Assembly: GCA_021324775.1 (NCBI GenBank)
Contig: JAJPIM010000023.1
Location: 53,176-117,175, forward strand
Direction of reading: 5' to 3'
DNA: 64,000 nt
From: Gemmatimonadota bacterium
GTDB taxonomy: Bacteria > Gemmatimonadota > Gemmatimonadetes > Gemmatimonadales > Gemmatimonadaceae
The notes below the pieces were generated by a model, which made no database searches, was not told the DNA's origin, and was given only the letters and a program-made list of their open reading frames with translations. This document shows, one piece after another, positions 14,410-29,878 of the stretch (its first letter is position 1; the number at the start of each line of letters is the position of its first letter). The position numbers and the translations under genes were made by a program.

Positions 14410-15195
14410 ATGCCCCCGAGAACGCACGAGGATTCCAGCGACATCGGCATCGTCGGAACCGGCCGCTTCGGGTCCTACTTTGCCACCCAGCTCGAACGCG
14501 CCGGACACCGGGTCCACCGCGCCGATATACGGGAAGAGCCCGCTTCACGCCAGGCATCGATGGTGCGCGCGTGCCGTTCGCCCCTGGTCATCTACGCGGT
14601 CCCCATCCGCGAGTTGGAGCACGCGATTACCGGGACGCGGGATCTGCTGGCACCGGACGCCACGGTCATGGATGTCTCGTCGGTCAAGATCGTGCCCTGC
14701 GCGCTGCTCGAGCGCCTGCTCCCGGGAATGGCCACCGTGGGCACGCACCCCTTGTTCGGCCCTCAGTCGGCGCCCGACACCTGCGCTGGCCAGCGTGCCG
14801 CGGTCTGTGCGATCGCCACCGGCACGGCCGCCAGCCAGGTCGCGGCGGCGCGGGCTGGGGACTTATTCGCGAGCCTGGGCGTCACGGTCGTCCGGTGCAC
14901 GCCCGTGGAGCACGACACACAAGTCGCCCGCACTCAGTTCCTCACGCACTTTATCGGGCGTGGCGCCATCCGAGCGGGCATCGACCGCCTGCCACTGTCC
15001 ACGAAGAGCCACGATGCGCTGATGGATATCGTCGATGTCGTCGGCAGTGACTCTATGGAGTTGTTCGAGGACATGGCGGCGTTCAACCCAATGGTCCGGC
15101 CGGTTCGCGTGGAGTTCCTCGCCGCCCTTCTCGACATCGATCGGCAGCTCGCCGTCGGCGAACGCGACTCCGCCGACGGGCAGGCCGGTCACTAA
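14410..15195 (+). CDS. prephenate/arogenate dehydrogenase family protein
   Basis: C-terminal 261 aa of track ORF 13633..15195; the upstream part is antisense to the methyltransferase. Contains the Rossmann motif IGIVGTGRFGSYF, then SVKIVPC...GTHPLFGP...EHD. Confidence 0.7.
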   Translation: MPPRTHEDSSDIGIVGTGRFGSYFATQLERAGHRVHRADIREEPASRQASMVRACRSPLVIYAVPIRELEHAITGTRDLLAPDATVMDVSSVKIVPCALLERLLPGMATVGTHPLFGPQSAPDTCAGQRAAVCAIATGTAASQVAAARAGDLFASLGVTVVRCTPVEHDTQVARTQFLTHFIGRGAIRAGIDRLPLSTKSHDALMDIVDVVGSDSMELFEDMAAFNPMVRPVRVEFLAALLDIDRQLAVGERDSADGQAGH

Positions 15196-15228
15196 TCGAA
15201 AGCAATACGAATAGTGCAGGAGGATGAC

Positions 15229-15819
15229 ATGAAGCGGACGAGGCGTTCACACGGGAAGACGACCGGCGCGAAAGCGGAGGAACAGGCCTCTCAGCGTAAG
15301 ATTATCGTCTACATAGCGACGAGTGCGGATGGGTATATCGCTCGTCCCGACGGCGACGTAGACTGGCTGAATCGGCCGCTGCCGAAAGGCGGATATGGTA
15401 TGGAGACCTTTGGGCGTTCTATCGACACGGTGCTTTGGGGACGAAAGACCTACGATTTCGCAGTCAAGATGGGCGGACTCGGCGCCTTTGGCAGGCTCAA
15501 ACACTATGTGTTCTCCCGCCAACCGGTTTCAGATCCACTTCCAGAAGCCGTGTTTGTTTCGGAGCCTATTCCGGAATTCGTGGCCAAGCTTCGGGGGCGA
15601 GAGGGCAGAAACATCTGGATGATGGGCGGAGCATCGATCATTGCTTCATTTCTAGACTCGGGGGCGATTGACGAATTCTCGATCCATGTCATCCCTGTGA
15701 TGATTGGCGAGGGGATTCCGCTGGTCGCTCCTCGCCACCGGAATATCCAGCTCGACTTGATCTCCACCCGTTCCTTCCCGGACGGTGTGGTGCACTTGAA
15801 TTACACCGTTCGGCGTTAA
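15229..15819 (+). CDS. dihydrofolate reductase family protein (RibD C-terminal domain)
   Basis: Track ORF 15214..15819. ATG 15229 is preceded by AGGAGG. Contains IIVYIATSADGYIARPDGDVDWL...LWGRKTY...WMMGGASI. Confidence 0.8.
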   Translation: MKRTRRSHGKTTGAKAEEQASQRKIIVYIATSADGYIARPDGDVDWLNRPLPKGGYGMETFGRSIDTVLWGRKTYDFAVKMGGLGAFGRLKHYVFSRQPVSDPLPEAVFVSEPIPEFVAKLRGREGRNIWMMGGASIIASFLDSGAIDEFSIHVIPVMIGEGIPLVAPRHRNIQLDLISTRSFPDGVVHLNYTVRR

Positions 15820-15911
15820 CGGGCAGATCGTAGCCCGACTGCGCGCTCAGACGTGGGGCCAACCGTTTGGGGCACCATGCTGTCCATAGTGAAGCTCTGG
15901 ACGGAAAGCCC

Positions 15912-17036
15912 ATGCGCATTCGGTGTCGTCAAATCGGTCGTGTCCTTTTGTGGTTCATCGTGAGTATCGCACCCAGTAGAGCACCCGGGCAGGACCGACC
16001 TCCGAGGGACTCAAGTCGTTTTTTCGTTATCGGGAAGCGTTTCGCGTATACGAGCGATCTTCCGGAGACACTGCTGGCCGGCCCGACGCAATCACCGAGG
16101 CATCAACCCGTCGCGCCTCCGGGAGTCATCGTCGATATCGGCGGCCAGCGGATTCATATGAATTGTACCGGTGCCGGATCACCCACCGTGTTGCTCGAAA
16201 GCGGTTTGGGCGACGTGTCGGTGATTTGGGCGCTCGTGCAACCAGGTGTGAGCGTGTTTACGCGGGTGTGCAGCTACGATCGCGGGGGATATGCATGGAG
16301 CGACCCGGGGGCGCGACCGCGCACTTTCGTTCAACTTTCGCTCGAGTTGCACACGGCACTTGATCGCTTGCATGTCGCCGGCCCGTACGTACTCGTCGGC
16401 CAGTCCTACGGAGGACTTCTCGTTCGCGGATTTGCTGCACGGTATCGACGCGAAATAGCCGGTATGGTTTTGGTGGACGCGGTGCACGAGGATCAGCGCG
16501 TTGTCTACGGAGGACAGCCGCACCGAATCAGGGATGGCGCCACGGGGCGGAAGGCTCCGCCGCCGCTGATCGCGCTGGACACGGCGCTCATCCGGGAGGC
16601 GCAGAGTGCGCCGGCGCATCCGATGACGACAGCGCTGGAGGCTCCGTTGAACCGAATGCCCGCCAGTGCGCAAGCCGCATGGCGTTGGGCGGAAGCGCAA
16701 CCATTGATTGGTTTGGCACAGCAGGCCGAGACTGACTGGTCGCCAGAGGAACTGCAGCGCATGCACGACGGGCGACTTCACGATCGGGCATCGCTAGGGG
16801 ATCTGCCATTGATCGTTCTGGCACGCACACGCGGCGGCTACGACGATGGCATGAGCATCTCAGCCGACAGCTTGGAAGAGGAGCGGCACAATTTTGCGGC
16901 TGACCTCGCGCGGCTGTCGCGCCGTGGCCGGTTGGTCTTCGCCGACCACTCCGGACACAATATTCATCTGGAGGCGCCGGATCTGGTCATTGCCTCGATT
17001 CGAGAAGTCGTCGCCGGAGCGAGAACGGCGCGATGA
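15912..17036 (+). CDS. alpha/beta hydrolase, probably secreted
   Basis: Track ORF 15867..17036. The likely start is MRIRCRQIGRVLLWFIVSIAPS. The nucleophile elbow VLVGQSYGG and the fold pattern GSPTVLLESGLGD...HSGHNIHLE are present. Confidence 0.75.
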   Translation: MRIRCRQIGRVLLWFIVSIAPSRAPGQDRPPRDSSRFFVIGKRFAYTSDLPETLLAGPTQSPRHQPVAPPGVIVDIGGQRIHMNCTGAGSPTVLLESGLGDVSVIWALVQPGVSVFTRVCSYDRGGYAWSDPGARPRTFVQLSLELHTALDRLHVAGPYVLVGQSYGGLLVRGFAARYRREIAGMVLVDAVHEDQRVVYGGQPHRIRDGATGRKAPPPLIALDTALIREAQSAPAHPMTTALEAPLNRMPASAQAAWRWAEAQPLIGLAQQAETDWSPEELQRMHDGRLHDRASLGDLPLIVLARTRGGYDDGMSISADSLEEERHNFAADLARLSRRGRLVFADHSGHNIHLEAPDLVIASIREVVAGARTAR

Positions 17037-17186
17037 CCGGGCACCATAGGCCGAACTGTCATGAGAAGGTAATGAACAGATTGGCGAACGCTTGGAGTGC
17101 CTATCACCGCGCCATTGCGATCGCACACCGCGCGGGCCGGTGGAGCTGAAACGACATCATTGCAGTTACCGAATTATGGGCCAGCG

Positions 17187-17215
17187 TTGACACTGACATT
17201 GGCCGCCAATACATT
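17187..17215 (+). promoter_or_regulatory. sigma70-type promoter candidate: TTGACA-17 nt-TACATT
   Basis: TTGACA at 17187..17192, a 17-nt spacer, then TACATT at 17210..17215. The GTG of the His-rich ORF lies 7 nt after the -10 hexamer. Confidence 0.5.
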
Positions 17216-17221
17216 CGGGTC

Positions 17222-17311
17222 GTGCTCGCCATCCAGCGCCATCACCATCATGTGCATCACCACGGCCCTTCGGGTCGCGGCGCGACGCGCGTGCATCGGA
17301 TGATCAGCTAG
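17222..17311 (+). CDS. hisL: his operon leader peptide candidate (29 aa, 7 His in 8 consecutive codons)
   Basis: Own reading: GTG CTC GCC ATC CAG CGC CAT CAC CAT CAT GTG CAT CAC CAC GGC ... TAG = (M)LAIQRHHHHVHHHGPSGRGATRVHRMIS*. It lies directly upstream of an intrinsic terminator and hisG, and is too short for the track. Confidence 0.75.
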   Translation: MLAIQRHHHHVHHHGPSGRGATRVHRMIS

Positions 17312-17345
17312 CACACTTCACACTCCGACCGTACCGCAACCGCCC

Positions 17346-17378
17346 CGGCCCGTCTATTCGACGGGCCGTTTTTGTTTT
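17346..17378 (+). terminator. intrinsic terminator / attenuator between the His leader and hisG
   Basis: Perfect 9-bp stem CGGCCCGTC / GACGGGCCG with loop TATTC, followed by TTTTTGTTTT. It ends 31 nt before the hisG ATG. Confidence 0.8.
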
Positions 17379-17409
17379 GCGCCCATACCCCGGCACCCAC
17401 CACACCACC

Positions 17410-18288
17410 ATGCTCCGCGTCGCTCTACCCAATAAAGGCCGTCTCGCCGAAGCCACCCGCGACCTGTTTGCCGATGCCGGCCTCGAGGTCCGCGGCCGCG
17501 GCGAACGCGCTCTCACGGCATCGCTCGGCGGTGAGTTCGAAGCGCTCTTCGTTCGCGCGCAGGATGTCACCGAGTTCGTCGCCGACGGCGTCGCCGATGC
17601 CGGTGTCACCGGGTGGGACCTGGTCGCCGAGTCGGACCGGCCGGTCGATCCACTGCTCGACCTCGAGTTCGGTTACTGCCGGCTCGTCGTCGCGGCACGA
17701 GAGGACAGCGGGATCCACGCCGTCGCCGATCTGAGGCCCGGTCCGGAAGCGCCGCACCGTGTCGCCACGAGCTTCCCCCGCATCACGCGCCGCTTCTTCT
17801 CCGACGCAGGCCGCGCTGTCGATGTCGTCCCGGTCTCGGGGGCCGCCGAGGTCGCGCCACACCTGGGGATCGCCGACATCGTCGTCGACCTGACGTCCAC
17901 CGGCTCGACCCTCAAGGTCAACGGCCTCCGCGAAGTCGCCACGATCCTCGACTCCTCGGCGCGCCTGATCACCGCCACGGGCCGCGACGCCGGCAACCTT
18001 GGCGTCGCCGCGCCGCTGGATGAACTCGTCGCGGCCCTCGCCTCCGTCCTCCGCGCACGGGGACAGCGATACCTCATGGCCAATGTCCCGCGCAACGCGC
18101 TCGATCGGGTCAAACAGATCCTTCCCGGACTGAATGGCCCCACCGTCACCGACATCCTCAACGGCGGCGACCTCGTGGCCGTCCACGCGGTCGTACCCGC
18201 TGCTTCGGTCTATCGCACCATCGCCGCACTCAAGGCCCTGCAGGCCACCGGTGTTCTCGTGACGAGGATCGAGAGGTTGATGCCATGA
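17410..18288 (+). CDS. hisG: ATP phosphoribosyltransferase, long form
   Basis: Track ORF 17377..18288. ATG 17410 gives MLRVALPNKGRL...; DLTSTGSTLKVNGL is present, and there is a C-terminal regulatory domain. Confidence 0.9.
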   Translation: MLRVALPNKGRLAEATRDLFADAGLEVRGRGERALTASLGGEFEALFVRAQDVTEFVADGVADAGVTGWDLVAESDRPVDPLLDLEFGYCRLVVAAREDSGIHAVADLRPGPEAPHRVATSFPRITRRFFSDAGRAVDVVPVSGAAEVAPHLGIADIVVDLTSTGSTLKVNGLREVATILDSSARLITATGRDAGNLGVAAPLDELVAALASVLRARGQRYLMANVPRNALDRVKQILPGLNGPTVTDILNGGDLVAVHAVVPAASVYRTIAALKALQATGVLVTRIERLMP

Positions 18289-19616
18289 CGGCATCCCTCA
18301 CACCCGCCGTGCCGCAGACCCGGCAGGCCTTCCGCATCACCGGCACGATCGGGGGCCTCTCCGCGGCGGACCAGCGCCTGCTCTTCGATCGCGCGCAGAC
18401 GCTCGACGATCATATCCGCGCGCGTACATCGGAGATCATCCGGCGGGTACGGCAGGACGGCGACCGCGCACTCCGCGAGCTGGCGTACTCGCTCGACGGC
18501 GTCGCCCTCGATCAGCTCGAAGTGCCGTGCACCGCATGGCGTGATGCTGCCGCGATCGTTGCACCGGAGGTACGGTCCGCGCTCGAACGCGCGGCGCGCA
18601 ATATCCGCTGCGCCCACGAGGCCTGGCTGCCGTCCGCCACCGAGGTAGAAGTCGAACCAGGGGTGATCGTCGGCCGCCGGCCCGACCCACTCGTTCGGGC
18701 GGGCATCTACGCCCCTGGCGGCCGGGCGCTCTATCCGAGCAGCGTTCTCATGGGAGCGATCCCCGCGCGCGTGGCGGGCGTCGGTGAGGTGATCCTGTGC
18801 TCGCCGCCAGGACCATCCGGCATCCCGGCGCCGATCATGCTTGCCGCGGCCGAGATCGCGGGAGTGGACCGCGTCTTTTCCGTGGGCGGTGCGGGAGCGA
18901 TCGCCGCCATGGCCTACGGCACGCAGACCATCCCGCGGGTTGATCGGATCGCCGGTCCCGGCAACGCCTACGTGGCCGCCGCGAAACTGCAGGTGGCATC
19001 CGATACCGGCATCGATGCGCCAGCCGGCCCCAGCGAACTCCTGGTCATCGCCGACCACAGCGCCGCCGCCGAAACGATCGCGCGCGAGGTCCTCGCCCAG
19101 GCGGAACACGACCCGGATGCGGCCGTGGTCGTGATCGCGACGAGCCAGGAGATCGCCAGCGCTGTCGCTCGGGCCGTCCGCAGTCTCACCCCGTTCGAGA
19201 AGCGCGCCGATATCATCGCCGCGTCGCTGGCGGCCCGTGGCGCGCTCCTCGTCGCCCCGGATGTCGCCACCGCGATCCGTTTCAGTAACGACTGGGCGCC
19301 CGAACACCTCCTGCTCGCCGTCGGCGACCCGGACGCGGTACTGCGCGATGTCGTGAGCGCCGGTACGGTCTGCCTGGGAACGACGACGTCCGTGGTCTTT
19401 GGCGACTACATCACGGGCGCCAATCACATCCTGCCGACCGGCGGCGCCGCTCGCCGCTACTCCGGCCTCTCCACCCTGGATTTCGTTCGCTGGACGACGT
19501 ACCAGCGGGTCTCCGAAGCCGCCGCACTGTCGCTGGCCGGCGATGTCGCGATCCTTGCGACGGCGGAACGTCTCCCGGCGCACGCAGCCGCTGCACGGCG
19601 GCCGGTCTCACCATGA
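18285..19616 (+). CDS. hisD: histidinol dehydrogenase
   Basis: Track ORF of 443 aa with GPGNAYVAAAK and AQAEHD motifs. ATGA overlap with hisG. Confidence 0.9.
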   Translation: MTASLTPAVPQTRQAFRITGTIGGLSAADQRLLFDRAQTLDDHIRARTSEIIRRVRQDGDRALRELAYSLDGVALDQLEVPCTAWRDAAAIVAPEVRSALERAARNIRCAHEAWLPSATEVEVEPGVIVGRRPDPLVRAGIYAPGGRALYPSSVLMGAIPARVAGVGEVILCSPPGPSGIPAPIMLAAAEIAGVDRVFSVGGAGAIAAMAYGTQTIPRVDRIAGPGNAYVAAAKLQVASDTGIDAPAGPSELLVIADHSAAAETIAREVLAQAEHDPDAAVVVIATSQEIASAVARAVRSLTPFEKRADIIAASLAARGALLVAPDVATAIRFSNDWAPEHLLLAVGDPDAVLRDVVSAGTVCLGTTTSVVFGDYITGANHILPTGGAARRYSGLSTLDFVRWTTYQRVSEAAALSLAGDVAILATAERLPAHAAAARRPVSP

Positions 19617-20686
19617 TGGCCCCTCCGCTCACGCGGGATGCGTACCGAGATGTCGGGCGCTATGTCGTCGACCAGTCTGTCATAGCGATCGACCTCCGTG
19701 ACAACACGAATCTCTGGGGCGTCCCTCCGGCCGCTGGCCGAGCGATCGCCGCATCCGCGGCGGCGGTGAGCCGCTATCCCCGCATCTACGCGTCGGCGCT
19801 CAAGGATGCGCTGGCGGCTTATGCCGGTGTGACACCGGACATGATCGTCACCGGCTGCGGATCCGACGACGTGATCGACTCGGCGCTCCGGGCCGTCGCG
19901 GACCCGGGTCAGCGCATGGCTCACCTCGATCCGACCTTCCCGACGGCTCTCACGTTCGCGCAGATGAACGGCCTGATCCCGGCCGGGGTGCCGCTGACAG
20001 GAAGTTGGGATGCGGACGCCGACGCACTGATCGCCACCGGCGCCCGGGTGATCTATCTCTGCTCTCCCAACAACCCGACGGGCACGATGGTTTCCCGGGA
20101 ATCCCTGGAGCGGCTTGCCATGCACGCGCCAGGAGTCGTGATCGTCGACGAGGCCTACGCGGAATACGCGCGCACGAGTGCGGCCGATCTCACGGGACCG
20201 GGGAGCCGAGTGCTGGTGCTTCGCACGCTGTCGAAGGCTTTCGGACTCGCGGGTCTCCGGATCGGCTACGCCATCGGCGCGCCGGATCTCATCGCAGGGA
20301 TCGAGAAATCGAGAGGACCGTACAAAGTCAGTGTCGTGGCCGAGCATGCCGCGATCGCAGCTTTGACCACCGATGCGCCGTGGGTGCGCGCGCGGATCGC
20401 TGAGACGATCGCGAACCGCGGCCAGCTCGCGGGACGCCTGGCCGCGCTCGGCCTGCGCGCGCTCCCCTCGGGTGCCAATTTCCTCTTCGTCCCGACGCCA
20501 CAGGCGGCGCCGATCGAACGATGCCTCTGGGAATGCGGCGTCGGTGTCCGGCTCTACACGGGGCTGCGCGGGATCGGCGATGCCATCCGCATGACCGTCG
20601 GACCCTGGTATCTCATGGCGTCACTGATCCAGGCATTGGAGCGCGCCACCGGACGATCGGCTGCGATGGACGGACCGGCCGTATGA
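19613..20686 (+). CDS. hisC: histidinol-phosphate aminotransferase
   Basis: Track ORF of 357 aa: class II aminotransferase pattern (LCSPNNPTG, RTLSKAFGLAGLRIGY). Overlaps the hisD stop. Confidence 0.85.
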   Translation: MMAPPLTRDAYRDVGRYVVDQSVIAIDLRDNTNLWGVPPAAGRAIAASAAAVSRYPRIYASALKDALAAYAGVTPDMIVTGCGSDDVIDSALRAVADPGQRMAHLDPTFPTALTFAQMNGLIPAGVPLTGSWDADADALIATGARVIYLCSPNNPTGTMVSRESLERLAMHAPGVVIVDEAYAEYARTSAADLTGPGSRVLVLRTLSKAFGLAGLRIGYAIGAPDLIAGIEKSRGPYKVSVVAEHAAIAALTTDAPWVRARIAETIANRGQLAGRLAALGLRALPSGANFLFVPTPQAAPIERCLWECGVGVRLYTGLRGIGDAIRMTVGPWYLMASLIQALERATGRSAAMDGPAV

Positions 20687-21300
20687 TCCGCGCGACGATT
20701 CTCGACTACGGCGCCGGCAACCTCCACTCGCTCGCCAAGGCGCTGGCCATGCCGGACGTCTCGGTACACATCACGACGGATCCATTGTCGGCGATCGATA
20801 CCGAAGTCCTCATCCTCCCCGGCGTCGGGGCGTTCACCGGCGCGGCCGGCTGCCTCGCGCCTGCCCGCACCGCAATCCGCCGCGCACTCACCGATGGCCT
20901 CCCATGTCTCGCCATCTGCCTGGGCATGCAGCTCCTGTTCGATGCGAGTGAAGAGGGGCCGGGCGCAGGTCTGGGGTTCTTGGCGGGCCGCGTCCGCCGG
21001 TTGAAAGCGGCGCTCGTCCCGCATATGGGCTGGAACACACTGGAAGAGCCGGCCGATCCACTCGTCACGGGCGGCGCGCTCGAGACGGCCTATTACGCAC
21101 ACAGCTATGTGTGCCCGCCCGCAGATCCAGGTGTGACGACAGCGTGGACGATGGTGGACGGCGACCGTTTTCCAGCCATCGTCCGTCGCGAGCGCACAGT
21201 CGGTGTCCAGTTCCACCCCGAGAAGAGCTCGGCGCCCGGTGTGTCCTTCATTCACCGGTTCCTCGCGGACGTCGCGGGACCACGGACGGAGGTGTCATGA
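20683..21300 (+). CDS. hisH: imidazole glycerol phosphate synthase, glutaminase subunit
   Basis: In-frame ATG 20683 within track ORF 20521..21300: MIRATILDYGAGNLHSL..., catalytic CLGMQLL, and HSY. ATGA overlap with hisC. Confidence 0.9.
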   Translation: MIRATILDYGAGNLHSLAKALAMPDVSVHITTDPLSAIDTEVLILPGVGAFTGAAGCLAPARTAIRRALTDGLPCLAICLGMQLLFDASEEGPGAGLGFLAGRVRRLKAALVPHMGWNTLEEPADPLVTGGALETAYYAHSYVCPPADPGVTTAWTMVDGDRFPAIVRRERTVGVQFHPEKSSAPGVSFIHRFLADVAGPRTEVS

Positions 21301-22013
21301 TCGCGATCCCCGCGGTCGATCTCCGCGACGGCGCGTGCGTGCAGCTCGTCGGCGGGTCGTACGCCGATGAGCGGATCCGGCTGCCCGATCCTGCCAGTGT
21401 GGCCCAGCGCTGGGCGGAGCTGGGCTTCGCGCATCTCCACGTCGTCGATCTCGACGCGGCCACCGGATGTGGGTCGAATGCACCGATTGTCCGCCGCATC
21501 CTCCGGCGCGGCGCCGGTCCCGAGGTGCAGATCGGCGGTGGGATCACGAGCGAAGGGTGCATCCGTGCGCTCGTGCGCGACGGCGCCGCCCGGATCATCG
21601 TCGGAACCCGGGCGATCGAAGATCCGGCATGGATCGCCGAGATGGCCGCCCGATTCCCGAACCGGCTGATCGTCGCCGCCGATGCGCGCGGCGAGCAGGT
21701 CGTCACCCGCGGCTGGAACAGGGTGCTACCCGCACATGTTCTCGAGTCAATCGAGGCGCTCCATGGGCTGCCGCTCGCGGGGATCCTCGTCACTGCCGTA
21801 CATCGGGAAGGCCGGCTGCAGGGTCCCGACCTGCCGCTGATGGCATCAGTCGTCAATCGCGCCCCGGCACCCGTGTACGCCGCGGGCGGCATCGCCTCGC
21901 TTGCGGATCTCCGGGCGCTGGCCGCGATCGGTGTCACCGCGACAGTGATCGGGATGGCCCTCTACACTGGCGCGCTGGATCCGCGCGCCGTCGTCACGGA
22001 GTTCTCACAATGA
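21297..22013 (+). CDS. hisA: 1-(5-phosphoribosyl)-5-[(5-phosphoribosylamino)methylideneamino]imidazole-4-carboxamide isomerase
   Basis: In-frame ATG 21297 in track ORF 21111..22013: MIAIPAVDLRDGACVQLVGG... ATGA overlap with hisH. Confidence 0.9.
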   Translation: MIAIPAVDLRDGACVQLVGGSYADERIRLPDPASVAQRWAELGFAHLHVVDLDAATGCGSNAPIVRRILRRGAGPEVQIGGGITSEGCIRALVRDGAARIIVGTRAIEDPAWIAEMAARFPNRLIVAADARGEQVVTRGWNRVLPAHVLESIEALHGLPLAGILVTAVHREGRLQGPDLPLMASVVNRAPAPVYAAGGIASLADLRALAAIGVTATVIGMALYTGALDPRAVVTEFSQ

Positions 22014-22606
22014 CTGGACGAAATGGAGCCGAAGTGAACCCTACGGGAGCGCGCGGGCATGTGGTCGAGCGCGTCACGCGAGAGACGGATATCCGCGTCG
22101 AGATCGCTCGCGGCGCCGGCCGCGCGACCGCCGACACGACGCAGCCGTTTCTCGATCACATGCTAGTGACGCTCGCCCGGTATTCGGCCCTGGATCTCAC
22201 AGTCCAAGCGCGCGGCGATCTCAAGCACCATCTCATCGAGGATGTCGCGATTGTCGTCGGCACCGCGGTCGCCGGGCTCGCGACGCCCACAGCCGCCCGT
22301 TACGGAGATCGCACGATCCCCATGGATGATGCGCTCGTCCAGGCAGTTCTCGATGTGGGGGGACGTCCGTTCTATCAGGGGCCATTGCCGAGCCGGTTGT
22401 ACGATCACTGGATGCGATCGTTCGCCGACCACGCGCGCGCGACGCTGCATCTGAGAGTGCTCCGGGGCCAGGATCGTCACCACATCGTCGAAGCCGCGTT
22501 CAAGGCCCTCGGCCTCGCCATCCGTGATGCGCTCGTTGACGGCGGGGAGGTGTTCAGCACCAAAGGGCGTGTCGAGGTTGCACGCGTGCCGGGGCTCCCC
22601 ACATGA
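22010..22606 (+). CDS. hisB: imidazoleglycerol-phosphate dehydratase (monofunctional, 198 aa)
   Basis: In-frame ATG 22010 in track ORF 21467..22606: ...TRETDIRVEI...FLDHMLVTLARYS...DLKHHLIEDVAIVVG. There is no histidinol-phosphatase domain. ATGA overlap with hisA. Confidence 0.9.
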   Translation: MTGRNGAEVNPTGARGHVVERVTRETDIRVEIARGAGRATADTTQPFLDHMLVTLARYSALDLTVQARGDLKHHLIEDVAIVVGTAVAGLATPTAARYGDRTIPMDDALVQAVLDVGGRPFYQGPLPSRLYDHWMRSFADHARATLHLRVLRGQDRHHIVEAAFKALGLAIRDALVDGGEVFSTKGRVEVARVPGLPT

Positions 22607-23391
22607 CGCGGACCCGTCGCGTGATCGTGTGTCTCGATGCCGACGACGACCGTGTGGTCAAAGGCGTGCAATTTCGTGCCCTGCGTCCGATCGGCGACCC
22701 GGCGGAGATGGCGGCCCGCTACGAACGCGCCGGCGCCGACGAGATCGTGCTGCTCGACATCTCGGCCAGCGCGGAGGGACGGGAGACACGGTGGGACACG
22801 GTGCGCCGGACGGCGGAGCAACTGTTCATCCCTCTCACCTTTGGAGGCGGAGTGCGGTCGGTGGACGATGTTGGCCGTGCGCTTCGGGCTGGCGCGGACA
22901 AAGTCGCGGTCAACACCGCCGCGGTCACCCGCCCGGCCGTGATCAGCGAAGCGGCGGCCTGGTTCGGCGCCCAGTGCATCGTTGCGAGCATCGATGCGAG
23001 GCGGGACGAGAGCGCACCGTCCGGGTGGCGCGTGGTTATCCATGGCGGCCGCACCGAGACGCCGCTCGATGTCGCCGAGTGGGCGCGCGAGTGCGTAGAC
23101 AGTGGGGCGGGGGAGATTCTGCTTACGAGCATCGACTGCGACGGCGGGCGCTCGGGATATGATCTGGCGCTTACGCGCACCGTCGCTTCGCTGGTGACCG
23201 TGCCGGTGGTCGCCTCCGGCGGTGCGGGCTCGGCGGACCACGTCTGCGCGGTTCTGTGCGACGGCGGTGCCGACGCGGCGCTCGTGGCGGGGATCGTGCA
23301 CGACGGTGTGGTGACGGTCGGGTCGATCAAGGCAGCAATGGCCGCCCGAGGACTACCCGTCCGGGGAGAGATTATCAGAGGCGCTGCGTGA
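22603..23391 (+). CDS. hisF: imidazole glycerol phosphate synthase, cyclase subunit
   Basis: Track ORF of 262 aa: RVIVCLDADDDRVVKGVQF...GADEIVLLDISAS...GGGV. ATGA overlap with hisB. Confidence 0.9.
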   Translation: MTRTRRVIVCLDADDDRVVKGVQFRALRPIGDPAEMAARYERAGADEIVLLDISASAEGRETRWDTVRRTAEQLFIPLTFGGGVRSVDDVGRALRAGADKVAVNTAAVTRPAVISEAAAWFGAQCIVASIDARRDESAPSGWRVVIHGGRTETPLDVAEWARECVDSGAGEILLTSIDCDGGRSGYDLALTRTVASLVTVPVVASGGAGSADHVCAVLCDGGADAALVAGIVHDGVVTVGSIKAAMAARGLPVRGEIIRGAA

Positions 23392-24026
23392 TGCCGGGCG
23401 CTGGCGTGCTCGATCTCGATAAGCTGGACTTCGAGAAGGGCGATGGCCGCCTGACCGTCGTCACGCAGGACGCCGATACGGGCGCCGTCCTCATGGTGGC
23501 GCACGCGGACCGTGACGCGCTCGAACGCACGATCGCGACTGGCGAGATGTACTACACATCCCGGACTCGCGGGCTCTGGCACAAGGGCGCCACGAGTGGC
23601 AATCGTCAGAGCGTGGTGTCGCTGGCCGCGGACTGCGACGGCGATGCGGTCCTCGCCCGCGTGCGTCCCATGGGCCCGGCCTGCCACTCCGGCCAGACGT
23701 CCTGCTTCGGCGAGCCGGCGCTGGCGCCGGACGCGCTCGCCGTGCTCGACCGCATGATCGCCGGCCGGGCTGCTGATCCATCGGCAGCGGCGGGTGGTTA
23801 CACCCGGACGCTGCTTCGGGATCGCAATCTGAGACTCAAGAAGATTGGTGAAGAGGCTGCCGAGTTTGTGGTGGCGTGCACGGGGACGGATGCGGATCGC
23901 GTCGTGGCCGAAGCCAGCGATCTCGTCTATCACGCATTGGTTGCCATGCATGGGGCAGGCGTCGCGTGGCCAGCCGTCGTCGGTGAGCTGGCCGCGCGCG
24001 GGTCTCGTGGCAAGCCGGCCGAATAA
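23391..24026 (+). CDS. hisIE: bifunctional phosphoribosyl-AMP cyclohydrolase / phosphoribosyl-ATP diphosphatase
   Basis: In-frame ATG 23391 in track ORF 23256..24026: ...VVTQDADTGAVLMVAHADRDAL...YYTSRTRGLWHKGATSGN...CDGDAVL...CHSGQTSCF, then a PRA-PH helical part (LKKIGEEAAEFV). 1-nt overlap with the hisF stop. Confidence 0.85.
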   Translation: MPGAGVLDLDKLDFEKGDGRLTVVTQDADTGAVLMVAHADRDALERTIATGEMYYTSRTRGLWHKGATSGNRQSVVSLAADCDGDAVLARVRPMGPACHSGQTSCFGEPALAPDALAVLDRMIAGRAADPSAAAGGYTRTLLRDRNLRLKKIGEEAAEFVVACTGTDADRVVAEASDLVYHALVAMHGAGVAWPAVVGELAARGSRGKPAE

Positions 24027-26262: not shown

Positions 26263-26787
26263 TCAGTTCAAATATCGCGCGACGCAGATCTCCGGGCAGT
26301 CGAACCGCCGCGCGCACCCGTTGCAATCACGGGCGACTTTCTCCGGATACCGGGATTTCTCGACGACAGCGTAGCCCAGTGTCTCAAAAAACCGCGGCGT
26401 CATCGTGAGCGCCACGAGATGATTCACACCCCGGCACCCGGCCAGCTCCTCGACCCGGCGTACCAGCTCACGACCGATGCCTGTGCCATGGGCTCGCGCG
26501 ACGACCGCGACCGAGCCGACTTCTGCAACGGACGGCGAGTACTCCCGGATCGCCGCGCATCCCAGAAGCCGGCCGGTGTGGTCGGCCGCCACGATGAAGT
26601 CGTCGAGCGCCATCGCCACCGCATCGGGTGACTTGGGCAGCATCACGCCGCGCGCCGCATATTCGTTGATGAGCGCGACGATGGCTGGCACGTCCATCGC
26701 CCGCGCTGGACGATAGGTCACTGCGAGCCGGGCCGCAGGAGCCCGCGTGACGGTCTGGCGGCTGTGCCGCGCGAGTGTGGCGGTCAT
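26263..26787 (-). CDS. short GNAT N-acetyltransferase, putative N-acetylglutamate synthase of the arg operon
   Basis: C-terminal 174 aa of track ORF 26263..27357. ATG 26787..26785 overlaps the argD stop (ATGA). GNAT motif VVARAHGTGIGRELVRRVEELA, and a C-terminal Cys motif DCNGCARRFDCPEIC. Confidence 0.65.
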   Translation of the reverse strand: MTATLARHSRQTVTRAPAARLAVTYRPARAMDVPAIVALINEYAARGVMLPKSPDAVAMALDDFIVAADHTGRLLGCAAIREYSPSVAEVGSVAVVARAHGTGIGRELVRRVEELAGCRGVNHLVALTMTPRFFETLGYAVVEKSRYPEKVARDCNGCARRFDCPEICVARYLN

Positions 26788-28007
26788 ACGAGTACCGAGT
26801 AGAGGATGCCGATGCCGCGCTCGAGATCCGGGCGCGTGATCGTGAGTGGAGGCAGTAGCCGGAGCGTGTGGTCGCCTGCCGAGAGTATGAGCAGGCCCGT
26901 CTCGCGTGCCGCATCGATGATCGGTGCGGCCCGCATGGCGATGTCGATGCCCCAGATGAGCCCAACGCCGCGTATGCCGCGTACGTGAGGCGAGGCTTCC
27001 GCGAGGCGGTTCAGCGTCGCGCTCAGCCACTCGCCATGCTCCCGGACGGATTGGAGTAGCGCCGGTTCCGCGATCCGCTCGACGACGTACCGCGCGACGG
27101 CTGACACGAATGGGCCACCGCCGAAAGTCGAGCCGTGATCGCCCGCTTCGATCGAGGCGGCGATCTCGCCGTTGAGCAACACGGCCCCCATCGGCAGCCC
27201 GCCCGCGAGGGGTTTGGCCAATGCCAGCAGATCGGGCTCGATCCCGGCGCGCTCGTACGCGAACAGCCACCCGGTCCGTCCCAGCCCGCACTGCACTTCG
27301 TCCAGCATGAGCGCGATCCGCCGCTCGGCTGTCAGGCTCCGCAACTCGCGCAGCCACCCCGGGTCGAATACACGGACGCCGCCCTCGCCCTGCACGGGCT
27401 CCACGACCAGAGCCGCCGTCGTCTCCGGCACGAGTGTGTCCGCGAGGCGTCCGAGGTCACGCTCGGCGATCGTCACGCCTCCCGCGAGCGGCCGGAACGG
27501 CGCCCGGTAGCGTGGGCGGTCGGTTGCGGCGAGGCTCGCGAACAGCCGTCCGTGAAACGACCCGCGCAGGGCCACGATCTCGTGCTTCACCGGACCACCC
27601 ACGGCGCGGGCCCACCGCCGCGCGAACTTGAACGCGCCCTCGTTCGCCTCCGCACCGGAGTTGCAGAAGAAGACCTTGTCCGCGAACGAATGCATCACCA
27701 GCCACTGGGCCAGTTCTTCGGCGGGTTCGGTGCGGAACAGGTTGGAGACGTGGATGAGCCCCGACGCCGCGTCCTGCAACACCGATTGAAGCCCTGGGTC
27801 GCCGTAGCCGAGTGCATTGACGGCGATGCCGCTGGTGAAATCCAGATACCGGCGCCCATCGCTCGCGATCAACTCCGCGCCGTGGCCGTCCACGACAGTG
27901 AGCGGTGCCCGGGCGTAGGTCCCGAGGATCGCCGAGGGCGTTTCGGTGGGTGGTAGCGATGGGGCGACGCCGGCGTCCGGCATCACGGGCAGCGCGAGCC
28001 CGCTCAT
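26784..28007 (-). CDS. argD: acetylornithine aminotransferase
   Basis: Track ORF of 407 aa: class III aminotransferase (FFCNSGAEANEGAFKFAR, LMLDEVQCGLGRTG) in an arg operon context. Confidence 0.85.
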   Translation of the reverse strand: MSGLALPVMPDAGVAPSLPPTETPSAILGTYARAPLTVVDGHGAELIASDGRRYLDFTSGIAVNALGYGDPGLQSVLQDAASGLIHVSNLFRTEPAEELAQWLVMHSFADKVFFCNSGAEANEGAFKFARRWARAVGGPVKHEIVALRGSFHGRLFASLAATDRPRYRAPFRPLAGGVTIAERDLGRLADTLVPETTAALVVEPVQGEGGVRVFDPGWLRELRSLTAERRIALMLDEVQCGLGRTGWLFAYERAGIEPDLLALAKPLAGGLPMGAVLLNGEIAASIEAGDHGSTFGGGPFVSAVARYVVERIAEPALLQSVREHGEWLSATLNRLAEASPHVRGIRGVGLIWGIDIAMRAAPIIDAARETGLLILSAGDHTLRLLPPLTITRPDLERGIGILYSVLV

Positions 28008-28843
28008 GACAGCCCTCCATCGGCGACGATCGACGTACCGGTGCTGTCGCCGGCGATCATGGCGACATCGCCGATGCGTGCCCGGGGGACGCCGCGGGCG
28101 ACCGCGCCGACCGCCGCGCGGACCTTCACCAGCATCCCGTCCTTGATGTCGCCCGCGGCGATCGCCGCTTCGGCCGCGCTCTCGCTCAATTCGGTGACGT
28201 TGTGTCCGTGTGCTCTCACGTGCGCGACGTCGGCGACGAGCAGCAACTCTCGCGCACCGAGTGCCGTGGCGATGGCGGCTGCCGCATCGTCGGCGTTGAT
28301 GTTGAGCGCGGCGGTCGCCGGCACGGGGTGTCCGGGCACCCGGGCAGCACGCGCCAATGGCGAGATCACGGGGACGTAGCCGCTTGCGAGCAGCAGCTCG
28401 AGGAGCGGGGTGTGCACCGCGACGACGGACCCGGTGGCGCCGAGGGCACTGTCACCCGAGGGCTCGGCGACGAGGATGGAGGCATCCTCACCCGAGAGGC
28501 CGATCGCGGTGATCCCGGCGCCGATCAGCGCCGCGGTGAGCCGCTTGTTGGCGAGCCCGGAGCACGCCATCCGGATCCGGTCGATGTCGCCGGGCGACGT
28601 CACGCGGAGCCCATTCACAAACTCCGGCTTGACCCCGAACGTGCGTTGGAGAGCGGAGACCTCGTCCGCGGCTCCGTGCACGATCACGACCCGTTGGCCG
28701 GCCTGTGCGAGGCGAAGCGCCAGCGCCGCGGGGAGACGCGGATCGGTGAGCACGCGACCGCCGATTTTCACGACGAGTGGCGGCGCGGTCACATTGTCCA
28801 CTCCGGAGTCTGCGGCCATCAGTGCCGATGCCATCGCGCTCAC
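28004..28843 (-). CDS. argB: acetylglutamate kinase
   Basis: Track ORF of 279 aa: VVKIGGRVL..., VIVHGA, NINADDAAAAIA. Overlaps both argC and argD (ATGA). Confidence 0.85.
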   Translation of the reverse strand: MSAMASALMAADSGVDNVTAPPLVVKIGGRVLTDPRLPAALALRLAQAGQRVVIVHGAADEVSALQRTFGVKPEFVNGLRVTSPGDIDRIRMACSGLANKRLTAALIGAGITAIGLSGEDASILVAEPSGDSALGATGSVVAVHTPLLELLLASGYVPVISPLARAARVPGHPVPATAALNINADDAAAAIATALGARELLLVADVAHVRAHGHNVTELSESAAEAAIAAGDIKDGMLVKVRAAVGAVARGVPRARIGDVAMIAGDSTGTSIVADGGLS

Positions 28844-29850
28844 GCGGGCAGCCCCATTGTCTCCTCGAATCCCAGCAGGAGGTTGGCGTTTTGAAGGGCT
28901 TGTCCAGCGGCGCCCTTGAGCAGGTTGTCGATCGCGACGGTCGCGATCAGCGTCGGCCGGCGCACGCCTGCCGCGGCCGCGACCGAGATGCGGGCCGAGT
29001 TGCGGTGCACGACATCACGCAGCGATGGCGGTTCCGCGCTGATCTCGACGAACGGCTCCTCCGCGTAGTGCGCCTTCCAGAACCCCAGCGGATCAGTGAG
29101 CGGCTCGGCGAGCGGGATGGTCACCGTCGCGAGGATCCCGCGGGCGACCGGCAGCAGATGGGGCACGAACACGAGATCCGCGTCCGTCCCGAACCGCTCG
29201 AACACGGCGCGCATCTCGTTCAGGTGCCGGTGGTCGTTTCCCGCGGCGTAGGCGCGGCAGTTTTCGGTCACCTCCGCGAACAGCAGTTCCCGGCGGGGAG
29301 AATTCCCCGCGCCTGTGACCCCGCTCGCGGCACACACGGACACCGTTCCCCCTGGCGCGACGAGACCGGTAGCCAGCACCGGGAGGACCGCGAGCAGCAC
29401 CGCCGTGGCATAACATCCCGGATTTGCAACGACCCCGGCGACCCGCACGGCCTCGCGATCCAGCTCCGGAAGCCCATAGATCCCGGCGACCGGAGCGGTG
29501 CCGGTGGTCCCGGTCGTGGTCCGATGTGCGGCCCCGTTGCCGGGGCGGAGATCCGCGGACAGGTCAATGACCCGGGCGCCCACCGCATGGGCCTGGCTGA
29601 CCCAGCCGGCCGAAGTTCCATGCGGGAGCGCACTGAATACCAAGGCTGCGTCCTCGAGCGGGGCCTCGGCCGTCCCGACGAACCGCATCGCGTCATCCCG
29701 TCCTGGCACTGGCGCCCCATGCTGCTCGTTGGCAGTCGCCCACACCAAACCGAGCCGTGGGTGGCGGCCGATCAGTGCGCACAACTCCCTCCCGGCGTAC
29801 CCACTCGCCCCCAGTACGCCAACGGGCAACCGGCTGCCGAATGTCCTCAT
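28840..29850 (-). CDS. argC: N-acetyl-gamma-glutamyl-phosphate reductase
   Basis: Track ORF 28840..29871, trimmed to MRTFGSRLPVGVLGASGYAGRE (ATG 29850..29848). The active-site context NPGCYATA is present. Confidence 0.85.
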   Translation of the reverse strand: MRTFGSRLPVGVLGASGYAGRELCALIGRHPRLGLVWATANEQHGAPVPGRDDAMRFVGTAEAPLEDAALVFSALPHGTSAGWVSQAHAVGARVIDLSADLRPGNGAAHRTTTGTTGTAPVAGIYGLPELDREAVRVAGVVANPGCYATAVLLAVLPVLATGLVAPGGTVSVCAASGVTGAGNSPRRELLFAEVTENCRAYAAGNDHRHLNEMRAVFERFGTDADLVFVPHLLPVARGILATVTIPLAEPLTDPLGFWKAHYAEEPFVEISAEPPSLRDVVHRNSARISVAAAAGVRRPTLIATVAIDNLLKGAAGQALQNANLLLGFEETMGLPA

Positions 29851-29878
29851 ATTTATGCAATAATAATGCACATCTATG
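29851..29878 (-). promoter_or_regulatory. AT-rich element abutting the argC start; ARG-box-like (TGCAT-type half sites) operator/promoter candidate
   Basis: The minus strand reads cgcATAGATGTGCATTATTATTGCATAAAT-ATG. Two TGCA cores are spaced about one helical turn apart in an otherwise GC-rich context. No argR gene is present in the window. Confidence 0.35.

What the first reader, a model, noticed from the sequence alone, without database searches (positions are those of the whole stretch)
17222..17378. Histidine leader peptide plus intrinsic terminator upstream of hisG: classical his attenuation outside its usual phylogenetic range
Seen in sequence: a 29-codon ORF contains CAT CAC CAT CAT GTG CAT CAC CAC (7 His in 8 codons, 17240..17263). 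After its stop (17309..17311) and a 34-nt gap comes a perfect 9-bp GC-rich hairpin followed by TTTTTGTTTT, ending 31 nt before the hisG start.

Established knowledge: enterobacterial hisL (seven consecutive His codons) controls his operon transcription through ribosome-stalling-dependent antitermination.

The GC-rich self-complementary stretch GTCGCGGCGCGACGCGCG (17274..17291) could supply the alternative pairing partners, but I could not resolve a 2:3 antiterminator by eye.
Basis: partly seen in the sequence, partly recalled or inferred. Interest (0 to 1): 0.8.

Follow-up and report, generated by a model that had tools for sequence, protein, structure and literature searches.

The report
Leaderless histidine attenuator upstream of hisG
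A short histidine-rich leader ORF, an antiterminator and a terminator in front of the histidine operon of a Gemmatimonadales bacterium form a classical ribosome-sensing switch; it belongs to a conserved RNA family, absent from Rfam, that is shared with myxobacteria, so it is a solid new example of a known mechanism.

Summary
There is a 29-codon ORF (17222-17311) with 7 His in 8 codons. A 9-bp GC hairpin plus U-tract (17346-17378) ends 31 nt before hisG.

The window comes from a Gemmatimonadales genome. The same element precedes hisG in about 79 of 80 related loci from Gemmatimonadota, Myxococcaceae/Archangiaceae and 'Eisenbacteria'. It also occurs in more than 100 metagenome contigs, always upstream of hisG.

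- Region 1 is the His codons plus GGCCC.
- Region 2 is 17271-17304.
- Region 3 is 17318-17352.
- Region 4 is the 3' arm of the terminator.

The 1:2, 2:3 and 3:4 pairings exclude one another. They are supported by covariation, including His-codon wobble positions, and by an alignment-free complementarity test. The leader stop codon sits at the apex of the antiterminator.

A conserved TTGAC(N)/TAnnnT promoter places the transcription start on the GTG/ATG, so the leader ORF is probably leaderless.

No Rfam family matches, including His_leader RF00514, and I found no published report.

Verdict: a real, classical His attenuation element. It is a new family in new phyla, not a new mechanism. All evidence is computational.

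The parts
17187..17192 (+). -35 hexamer TTGACA of the leader promoter
   Evidence: Promoter scan, 10 of 12 matches with a 17-nt spacer. Exact TTGAC starts 34-40 nt (mode 36) upstream of the leader start codon in 68 of 79 loci, against 0.006 expected per locus. Homology with the closest relatives L001 and L002 resumes at 17167, 20 nt upstream of this hexamer, after a roughly 2-kb insertion.
17210..17215 (+). -10 hexamer TACATT
   Evidence: A TAnnnT hexamer ends 6-9 nt before the leader start codon in 54 of 79 loci, and 5 or 10 nt before it in 2 more.
17222..17311 (+). Leader ORF of 29 codons, GTG start and TAG stop: MLAIQRHHHHVHHHGPSGRGATRVHRMIS. It is probably translated from a leaderless mRNA, with the transcription start at or next to G17222.
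   Evidence: An in-frame His-rich ORF is conserved in 79 loci. There is no room for a 5' UTR or Shine-Dalgarno sequence between the -10 hexamer and the start codon.
17240..17263 (+). Regulatory His-codon run, 7 His in 8 codons, interrupted by one Val codon (GTG) that takes part in the P1 helix
   Evidence: Across the family there are 4-7 His per 8 codons. The wobble base of the His codon next to the interrupting codon covaries with the downstream strand: column 42-101 has CG 30, UA 26, UG 16. Leader His codons are 54% CAU, against 19% in hisG.
17241..17268 (+). Region 1: the 5' strand of the anti-antiterminator P1, made of the His codons plus CGGCCC
   Evidence: Single-sequence fold, -27.8 kcal/mol. 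The same three-tier hairpin is predicted in nearly all 79 sequences.
17263..17277 (+). P1a apical hairpin CGGCCC-UUC-GGGUCG. Its arms have nearly the same sequence as the terminator arms, so it acts as a decoy of the terminator. It encodes the conserved G-P-(T/S)-G-R.
   Evidence: helix 4, 85.8% of cells paired. Third codon positions inside stems are conserved and those in the loop vary (A1).
17271..17304 (+). Region 2: shared strand. It is the 3' strand of P1 (17272-17304) and the 5' strand of the antiterminator (17271-17303).
17318..17352 (+). Region 3: the 3' strand of the antiterminator. Its last 7 nt (17346-17352) lie within the 9-nt 5' arm of the terminator (17346-17354).
   Evidence: Constraint folds with the ribosome masked. 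The hairpin 17269-17354 folds at -36.7 kcal/mol. The base helix is 86% paired across 79 sequences.
17346..17368 (+). Intrinsic terminator hairpin (regions 3:4), CGGCCCGUC-UAUUC-GACGGGCCG
   Evidence: Energy is -18.4 kcal/mol. The core GCCCGUC / GACGGGC is nearly invariant in 79 sequences, with compensatory changes in the outer pairs and 95.4% of cells paired.
17369..17378 (+). U-tract TTTTTGTTTT
17410..24026 (+). Regulated operon hisG(long form)-hisD-hisC-hisH-hisA-hisB-hisF-hisIE
   Evidence: NCBIfam hits for all eight genes. hisD follows hisG in 78 related loci and hisC in 70.

Best explanation
This is a ribosome-mediated, leader-peptide transcription attenuator that makes his operon transcription depend on charged tRNA-His.

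Transcription starts from a sigma-70-type promoter (TTGACA, 17 nt, TACATT) at or next to the GTG at 17222. A 70S ribosome therefore loads directly on the 5' end, and the leader ORF is leaderless.

When there is no ribosome, or once a ribosome has passed, region 1 (His codons plus GGCCC, 17241-17268) pairs with region 2 (17272-17304). That leaves region 3 free to pair with region 4, forming the terminator (17346-17368 plus U-tract). Transcription then stops before hisG.

When His-tRNA is scarce, the ribosome stalls on the His codons (17240-17263) and covers region 1. Region 2 is then free to pair with region 3 (17318-17352) in a long antiterminator hairpin that holds 7 nt of the terminator's 9-nt 5' arm. 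RNA polymerase reads through into hisGDCHABF-IE.

When His is plentiful, the ribosome runs on to the stop codon. The stop codon sits at the apex of the antiterminator, so the ribosome melts the upper 5' strand of that hairpin. The small decoy hairpin GGCCC-loop-GGGUC re-forms behind the ribosome, and the terminator wins.

Shown from sequence and comparison: all the elements, their mutual exclusivity, their conservation and covariation, and their exclusive linkage to hisG.

Inferred: the transcription start, translation of the ORF, the response to tRNA-His, and the kinetic order of folding.
For: (1) The anatomy is exact.

(2) The element is conserved. A His-rich ORF, the conserved blocks and a terminator lie upstream of hisG in 79 of the 80 related genome loci, and in all 78 of those with enough upstream sequence. 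The loci come from Gemmatimonadota, Myxococcaceae/Archangiaceae and 'Eisenbacteria'.

(3) The terminated state (P1, P1a and terminator) on alignment A1 has 79.3% of cells paired, against 29-43% when partners are slid. The covariation score is 0.185 against about 0.07, and 0 of 500 shuffles reach it. Compensatory pairs include a His-codon wobble base.

(4) The antiterminator is predicted independently by minimum-free-energy folding in 78 of 79 sequences, with mean z of -2.95.
- Its base helix is 86% paired.
- With the conserved base trimmed, cognate 5' and 3' interiors pair at -29.2 kcal/mol against -23.3 for non-cognate partners, and 0 of 2000 permutations reach that.
- Cognate halves pair at -28.8 against -21.9 for a reversed 3' half, better in 43 of 47 representatives, p=5e-9.
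- Five pairs show double changes within one subfamily.

(5) Window folds with a ribosome mask switch between the two states as the model requires.

(6) The stop codon lies in the apical loop or upper 5' strand of the antiterminator in 77 of 78 sequences.

(7) Leaderless start: TTGAC lies at -36±2 from the start codon in 67 of 79 loci (68 within -34 to -40), and TAnnnT ends 6-9 nt before it. Homology with the nearest relatives begins 20 nt before the -35 hexamer.

(8) Specificity. A hisG-independent motif scan of metagenomes gave 120 loci, and 106 have hisG immediately downstream. Of the other 14, 5 are too short to tell, 1 (L127) is a genuine leader whose contig ends before hisG, and 8 are chance hits without a His run. 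Covariance model R2 finds 91 of 99 independent metagenome loci at 73-133 bits, none of the 8 chance hits, and exactly one site in the window, 17216-17381 at 114.5 bits; the window sequence was one of those the model was built from.

(9) Leader His codons are enriched for the rare CAU, 54% against 19% in hisG, p=1e-22.
Against: There is no experimental evidence: no transcript ends, no ribosome profiling and no reporter data.

For the full-length RNA with a stalled ribosome, the thermodynamic optimum still contains the terminator. Readthrough therefore rests on the usual kinetic argument that 2:3 forms before region 4 is made.

MAFFT plus RNAalifold recovers only the base helix of the antiterminator across the whole family. 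Interior covariation therefore rests on alignment-free tests and one subfamily.

The core of the terminator and of the antiterminator base never varies, so it says nothing either way.

GTG is a weak leaderless start in E. coli.

A few loci have poorer U-tracts (L004, L048).
Confidence: 0.87

Rival explanations
1. The attenuator is real, but the leader ORF is not leaderless. Transcription starts further upstream and the ORF is translated by Shine-Dalgarno-independent internal initiation.
For: hisG itself lacks a recognisable Shine-Dalgarno sequence in 64 of 79 loci, so these lineages evidently initiate without one. No transcription start has been measured.
Against: A conserved -35 and -10 pair sits at exactly the distance that puts +1 on the start codon. 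Conservation with the nearest relatives begins only 20 nt upstream of the -35 hexamer. No alternative promoter was found in the 3-kb scan.
Confidence: 0.1
2. The His-rich ORF encodes a functional small protein, for example a metal-binding peptide, and the downstream hairpin is only a leaky terminator or insulator. His-tRNA is not sensed.
For: The peptide motif HHHHxHH-GPTGRG looks conserved at the amino-acid level. His-rich peptides can bind Ni or Zn (general knowledge).
Against: The conservation is at the RNA level. Stem positions are fixed, including synonymous third positions, while loop positions vary. A His-codon wobble base covaries with a distant strand. The C-terminal third of the peptide is not conserved in sequence or length. 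The element is linked exclusively to hisG. The stop codon is positioned relative to an RNA hairpin.
Confidence: 0.02
3. The structures are the binding site of a protein or small ligand (a riboswitch, a T-box or a TRAP-like system), and the His codons are incidental.
For: Histidine T-boxes and the HisR repressor regulate his genes in other phyla (PMC9413887).
Against: No Rfam family, T-box included, matches the window or representative loci even at E<=1-10. The His run is present in 109 of 117 motif-selected metagenome loci and in essentially all genome loci. The frame is preserved across codon-sized indels (A1).
Confidence: 0.02
4. This is a chance juxtaposition: the terminator belongs to the upstream gene and the ORF is a spurious high-GC reading frame.
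For: High-GC DNA produces many spurious ORFs.
Against: The upstream genes (15214-17036) lie in an insertion that is absent from the nearest relatives, yet the leader is conserved. A promoter lies between the upstream gene and the ORF. The element recurs in about 200 independent loci.
Confidence: 0.01

Closest known systems
Enterobacterial his operon attenuator (hisL; Rfam His_leader RF00514)
   Same: Both have a short ORF with a run of His codons directly upstream of hisG. Both have mutually exclusive RNA helices that end in an intrinsic terminator. In both, a ribosome stalled on His codons favours the antiterminator. In both, the His codons themselves lie in the first pairing strand.
   Different: There is no detectable homology: RF00514 does not hit at E<=10.

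From my own knowledge, E. coli hisL has 16 codons with 7 uninterrupted His, a Shine-Dalgarno-led start and six pairing segments (A:B, C:D, E:F against B:C, D:E).

Here the ORF has 29 codons, and the His run is interrupted by a conserved Ala/Val codon that pairs. The layout has four regions, like trp, plus a nested decoy hairpin. The ORF is probably leaderless. The operon order is hisGDCHABF-IE.
E. coli trp operon attenuator (trpL), the four-region model
   Same: Both have 1:2 (anti-antiterminator), 2:3 (antiterminator) and 3:4 (terminator) pairings. In both, a ribosome at the stop codon occludes region 2.
   Different: The amino acid sensed is different. The 2:3 helix is much longer, spanning about 80 nt. 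The regulatory codons lie upstream of the region 1 hairpin arm as well as inside region 1. The start is leaderless.
Predicted His-leader attenuators in Firmicutes (B. cereus group hisZ/hisS, Peptostreptococcaceae, Erysipelotrichales; PMC9413887, PMC2965389, PMC4833913)
   Same: These are independent, non-proteobacterial families of His-codon leader peptides with a terminator and antiterminator, found by comparative genomics.
   Different: They occur in different phyla, upstream of a different first gene (hisZ or hisS), and are described as unrelated in sequence. Nothing is reported for Gemmatimonadota or Myxococcota in the library I searched.
Leaderless leader peptides in Deinococcus deserti and mycobacteria (PMC4007540; bioRxiv 10.1101/834739)
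   Same: The leader ORF starts at the 5'-terminal AUG or GUG of the transcript and is proposed or shown to attenuate downstream amino-acid genes.
   Different: The amino acids and genes differ (cysS, trp, Cys biosynthesis), as do the phyla. No His/hisG case is mentioned in the main text of PMC4007540, where a term search for 'histidine' and 'hisG' found nothing; its supplementary table listing the 14 putative leader peptides was not checked.

Membership tests
Rfam His_leader (RF00514, gammaproteobacterial hisL attenuator) | Match to the family covariance model at or above the gathering score | tested here: not met
   cmscan of 16500-18000 at E<=10 gives no RF00514 hit. The whole window at gathering thresholds gives 0 hits. 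Seven representative loci at E<=1 give no hit on the leader.
Ribosome-mediated (leader-peptide) transcription attenuators | A short ORF with clustered codons for the end-product amino acid, upstream of the biosynthetic operon | tested here: met
   7 His in 8 codons at 17240-17263. This is conserved in 79 loci. The downstream operon is hisGDCHABF-IE.
Ribosome-mediated (leader-peptide) transcription attenuators | An intrinsic terminator between the leader ORF and the first structural gene | tested here: met
   Stem 17346-17368 plus U-tract. It is present in every locus that has enough upstream sequence.
Ribosome-mediated (leader-peptide) transcription attenuators | An antiterminator that shares a strand with the terminator and is evolutionarily maintained | tested here: met
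   17271-17303 pairs with 17318-17352 and overlaps the terminator's 5' arm. It is predicted in 78 of 79 sequences. The base helix is 86% paired. Interior complementarity gives p of about 5e-9 and 0 of 2000 permutations.
Ribosome-mediated (leader-peptide) transcription attenuators | An anti-antiterminator (1:2) that includes or abuts the regulatory codons, so that a stalled ribosome frees region 2 | tested here: met
   P1 and P1a span 17241-17304. Covariation includes a His-codon wobble base. The last His codon ends 5-12 nt before region 2 in 77 of 78 sequences, and 14 nt before it in the other.
Ribosome-mediated (leader-peptide) transcription attenuators | The stop codon is placed so that a terminating ribosome prevents 2:3 | tested here: met
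   The stop lies in the apical loop or upper 5' strand of the antiterminator in 77 of 78 sequences.
Ribosome-mediated (leader-peptide) transcription attenuators | Readthrough responds to charging of the cognate tRNA and needs translation of the leader | not testable with these tools
   This needs Term-seq, reporters or in vitro coupled assays.
Leaderless mRNAs | The transcription start coincides with, or lies within about 3 nt of, the start codon | tested here: inconclusive
   The promoter geometry predicts it, and this is conserved in 68 of 79 loci. No 5'-end data are available.

The most novel reading that the evidence does not exclude
The element may be more than a cis switch in three ways.
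- The leader and the long-form hisG operon may have moved as one unit between Gemmatimonadota, Myxococcaceae and 'Eisenbacteria'. HisG is 66-74% identical across these phyla, and the RNA core is the same.
- The decoy hairpin GGCCC-GAC-GGGUC may have arisen as a duplicate of the terminator arms. That would be a simple route by which a plain terminator becomes an attenuator.
- The abundantly terminated leader RNA of about 155 nt, or its His-rich peptide, may have a second role in trans, as shown for rnTrpL and peTrpL in Sinorhizobium.
Probability: 0.1. Interest if true: 0.6.

Novelty: new member of a known kind. Interest (0 to 1): 0.4.

Why it matters
It gives a well-supported regulatory annotation for the his operon in Gemmatimonadota, a phylum for which my literature searches found no attenuator or leader-peptide report. 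The same annotation applies to the genetically tractable Myxococcus xanthus, where it can be tested directly.

It defines an RNA family that is absent from Rfam 15. Covariance model R2 recovers 91 of 99 independent metagenome loci.

It adds a clean case of a leaderless leader peptide outside Actinobacteria and Deinococcus.

It shows an unusually transparent design: region 1:2 is a sequence mimic of the terminator. The near-identical RNA core across three phyla is a useful marker of his operon transfer.

It does not change the concept of attenuation.

Tried and rejected
- RNAalifold on a MAFFT alignment of all 78 region 2-3 segments recovered only 5 base pairs, because the interior is too variable to align by sequence. 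I replaced it with single-sequence folds and alignment-free swap, reversal and shuffle tests.
- My first antiterminator structure string was off by one column. I corrected it.
- Covariance model R1, built from one subfamily's antiterminator, did not generalise. Other subfamilies scored 19-29 bits, and the near-palindromic base gave antisense hits. I did not use it for pair counts.
- The search for homologous proteins with HisG listed only hits of at least 72% identity. It could not show whether more distant HisG clades, such as Actinobacteria, carry the element.
- The genome-contig scan kept only the best 80 of 254 relatives, so the outer phylogenetic limit of the family is unknown.
- Literature searches for a prior description in Myxococcus, Gemmatimonadetes or deltaproteobacteria found nothing. 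Lopatovskaya et al. 2010 (Mol Biol), a broad attenuator survey, is not in the library and could not be checked.
- I considered and rejected three alternatives: a T-box or riboswitch (no Rfam hit), a terminator of the upstream gene (that gene lies in an insertion absent from relatives), and a generic repeated terminator motif (it is unique in the window).

Full report
OBSERVATION

- A GTG at 17222 opens a 29-codon frame, MLAIQRHHHHVHHHGPSGRGATRVHRMIS, that stops at TAG 17309-17311.
- Codons 7-14 (17240-17263) are CAT CAC CAT CAT GTG CAT CAC CAC.
- After 34 nt comes a 9-bp stem, 8 of them G-C, at 17346-17368, followed by TTTTTGTTTT.
- The hisG ATG lies 31 nt further on, at 17410.

NCBIfam confirms hisG (long form, with the HisG C-terminal domain) followed by hisD, hisC, hisH, hisA, hisB, hisF and hisIE, ending at 24026.

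The His-codon pattern and the terminator core are each unique in the 64-kb window. The expected counts are 0.00 and 0.04.

ORGANISM AND RELATIVES

A scan of one genome per GTDB species with the HisG protein returned 80 loci.
- The two best, at 98% identity, are Gemmatimonadales MAGs.
- Most of the others are Gemmatimonadaceae or Gemmatimonadales.
- About 20 are Myxococcaceae or Archangiaceae (Myxococcus, Corallococcus, Pyxidicoccus, Hyalangium).
- Three are 'Candidatus Eisenbacteria'.

Every locus with enough upstream sequence has a His-rich ORF, with 4-7 His in 8 codons, ending 74-174 nt before hisG. Each also has a terminator whose stem is almost the same sequence everywhere: GGCCCGUCC, loop, GGACGGGCC, then a U-run.

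The alignment of 79 leaders (A1) shows four conserved blocks:
- the His codons;
- CAC-GGCCC-GAC-GGGUC-GGGG;
- GCGCGUGC..GGGUGA;
- the terminator.

THE ALTERNATIVE STRUCTURES

I found it in three steps.

(a) Window folds. I folded the window RNA truncated before region 4, with the ribosome footprint masked. This gives a long imperfect hairpin, 17271-17303 paired with 17318-17352. Its base, CGGGUCG with CGGCCCG, consumes 7 nt of the terminator's 9-nt 5' arm. Without a ribosome, the full RNA folds into P1 plus the terminator. P1 is the His codons and CGGCCC (17241-17268) paired with 17272-17304.

(b) Antiterminator across the family.
- Folded one at a time, 78 of 79 family members give the same long hairpin closed by GACGGGUC:GGCCCGUC, although the interior sequences differ widely. 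The mean z is -2.95.
- MAFFT cannot align those interiors, so RNAalifold recovers only the base. I therefore used alignment-free tests on 47 diverged representatives with the conserved base trimmed off.
- Cognate 5' and 3' halves pair at -29.2 kcal/mol, against -23.3 for non-cognate partners. None of 2000 permutations reaches that value.
- Cognate halves pair at -28.8, against -21.9 for the reversed 3' half of the same sequence. The cognate pair is better in 43 of 47, p=5e-9.
- Within one well-aligned subfamily, five pairs show changes on both sides.

(c) P1 across the family. The 1:2 structure is predicted in nearly every sequence as a three-tier hairpin.
- On A1, the terminated-state structure has 79.3% of cells paired, against 29-43% for slid partners. 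The covariation score is 0.185 against about 0.07, and 0 of 500 shuffles reach it.
- The wobble base of the His codon next to the interrupting codon covaries with a nucleotide about 60 nt downstream: C-G 30, U-A 26, U-G 16.
- The odd non-His codon inside the run (GCG, GUG, GCC, GCA, ACG, AUC and others) changes together with its partner strand.
- This explains why the His run is interrupted. It also explains the apparent conservation of the peptide G-P-T-G-R-G. The underlying RNA, GGCCC-GAC-GGGUCG-GGG, forms the apical hairpin P1a and the base of the antiterminator. Stem positions are fixed, including synonymous third positions, and loop positions vary.

Regions 1 and 2 are in effect a sequence mimic of the terminator arms. 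GGCCC mimics the 5' arm and GACGGGUC mimics the 3' arm.

PLACEMENT OF THE CODING SIGNALS

The last His codon ends 5-12 nt before region 2 in 77 of 78 sequences. A ribosome stalled on the later His codons therefore covers the 5' strand of P1 and GGCCC, and leaves region 2 free.

The stop codon lies in the apical loop or upper 5' strand of the antiterminator in 77 of 78 sequences. A terminating ribosome therefore sits on region 2. These are the classical design rules.

LEADERLESS START

The only sigma-70-like promoter found in 16000-19000 is TTGACA (17187), a 17-nt spacer, then TACATT (17215). It ends 6 nt before the GTG.

Across the family, exact TTGAC begins 34-40 nt (mode 36) upstream of the leader start codon in 68 of 79 loci. 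The chance expectation is 0.006 per locus. A TAnnnT hexamer ends 6-9 nt before the start codon in 54 loci.

Relative to L001 and L002, the window carries an insertion of about 2 kb (15176-17166) holding two unrelated genes. Homology resumes at 17167, 20 nt before the -35 hexamer. The promoter, leader and operon therefore form one conserved unit.

I infer that the transcript begins at the start codon. This has not been measured. Leaderless leader peptides have precedents in Deinococcus deserti (PMC4007540) and in mycobacteria (bioRxiv 10.1101/834739).

SPECIFICITY AND FAMILY COHERENCE

I scanned metagenome contigs for GGCCCGACGGGTCG, a gap of 48-78 nt, then GGCCCGTCC. This pattern does not depend on hisG.
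- 106 have hisG immediately downstream.
- 5 are too short to tell.
- One (L127) is a genuine leader whose contig ends before hisG.
- The other 8 are chance matches inside coding sequence, without a His run or a terminator.

I found no other regulated gene.

Covariance model R2 was built from A1 with the terminated-state structure. It recovers 91 of 99 independent metagenome loci at 73-133 bits and none of the 8 chance matches. It finds exactly one site in the window, 17216-17381, at 114.5 bits; the window sequence is itself part of the model's seed alignment, so that score is expected.

COMPARISON WITH WHAT IS KNOWN

Functionally this is classical attenuation. It is closest in purpose to enterobacterial hisL and closest in topology to the four-region trp attenuator.

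It is not a member of Rfam His_leader. There is no hit at E<=10 in the window region, none at gathering thresholds in the whole window, and none on the leaders of seven representative loci.

The literature I could search places His attenuators in gamma-proteobacteria. It predicts independent ones in Firmicutes (PMC9413887, PMC2965389, PMC4833913) and cites a search for His-containing leader peptides in Actinobacteria (ref 18 of PMC4833913). I found no report for Gemmatimonadota or Myxococcota. One broad Russian survey (Lopatovskaya 2010) could not be read.

OTHER FEATURES

Leader His codons are 54% CAU, against 19% in hisG of the same loci, p=1e-22. Either the pairing constraints or selection for a slowly decoded codon could explain this.

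VERDICT

The missing antiterminator is now defined and has comparative support.

It is a new, well-conserved family of a known kind of regulator, in phyla where my literature searches found none reported, and it probably has a leaderless leader ORF.

Confidence in the attenuation mechanism is about 0.87. Confidence in the leaderless start is about 0.75.

Interest is moderate, at 0.4. It is a good annotation, a candidate new Rfam-type family and directly testable in M. xanthus, but it would not surprise a specialist.

Noticed in passing
window 15176-17166: The window carries an insertion of about 2 kb relative to the closest relatives L001 and L002, whose HisG is 98% identical. The insertion holds a RibD-C/DHFR-like ORF (15214-15819; this label is my reading of the translation and was not checked against a family library) and an alpha/beta-hydrolase-like ORF (15867-17036). 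Flanking homology of 85-87% at the DNA level ends at 15175 and resumes at 17167.
   Followed up: partly
L014, L015, L024, L033, L035, L038, L047, L049 and others (Myxococcaceae/Archangiaceae); L044, L048, L062 ('Eisenbacteria'): HisG from myxobacteria and 'Eisenbacteria' is 66-74% identical to HisG from Gemmatimonadota. These loci carry the same leader RNA family with the same terminator core. This suggests horizontal transfer of the operon together with its attenuator between phyla. No tree was built.
   Followed up: partly
window 17379-17409 and the equivalent region of 79 loci: hisG has no recognisable Shine-Dalgarno sequence in 64 of 79 loci; the window has a C/A-rich spacer. These lineages may commonly initiate translation without a Shine-Dalgarno sequence.
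   Followed up: partly
L043 (CALQGY020000055.1): This contig is labelled 'Candidatus Kuenenia stuttgartiensis' MAG, yet it carries a Gemmatimonadota-type hisG (70% identity) and the same leader. The contig is probably mis-binned.
   Followed up: no
leader His codons in 79 loci; window 17240-17263: The rare codon CAU makes up 54% of leader His codons, against 19% in hisG (Fisher p=1e-22). Whether this reflects the RNA-pairing constraint or selection for slow decoding is unresolved.
   Followed up: partly
window 26784-29871, minus strand: Three adjacent, overlapping ORFs lie on the minus strand: 26784-28007, 28004-28843 and 28840-29871. From my reading of their translations they look like an argD, argB, argC cluster. 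They were not run against a family library, and their regulation was not examined.
   Followed up: no
L008 2046-2100, minus strand: There is a sub-threshold Rfam match to CsrB/RsmB, 28.7 bits against a gathering score of 71, E=3e-4, about 700 nt upstream of the leader in one Gemmatimonadaceae locus. It is probably chance.
   Followed up: no
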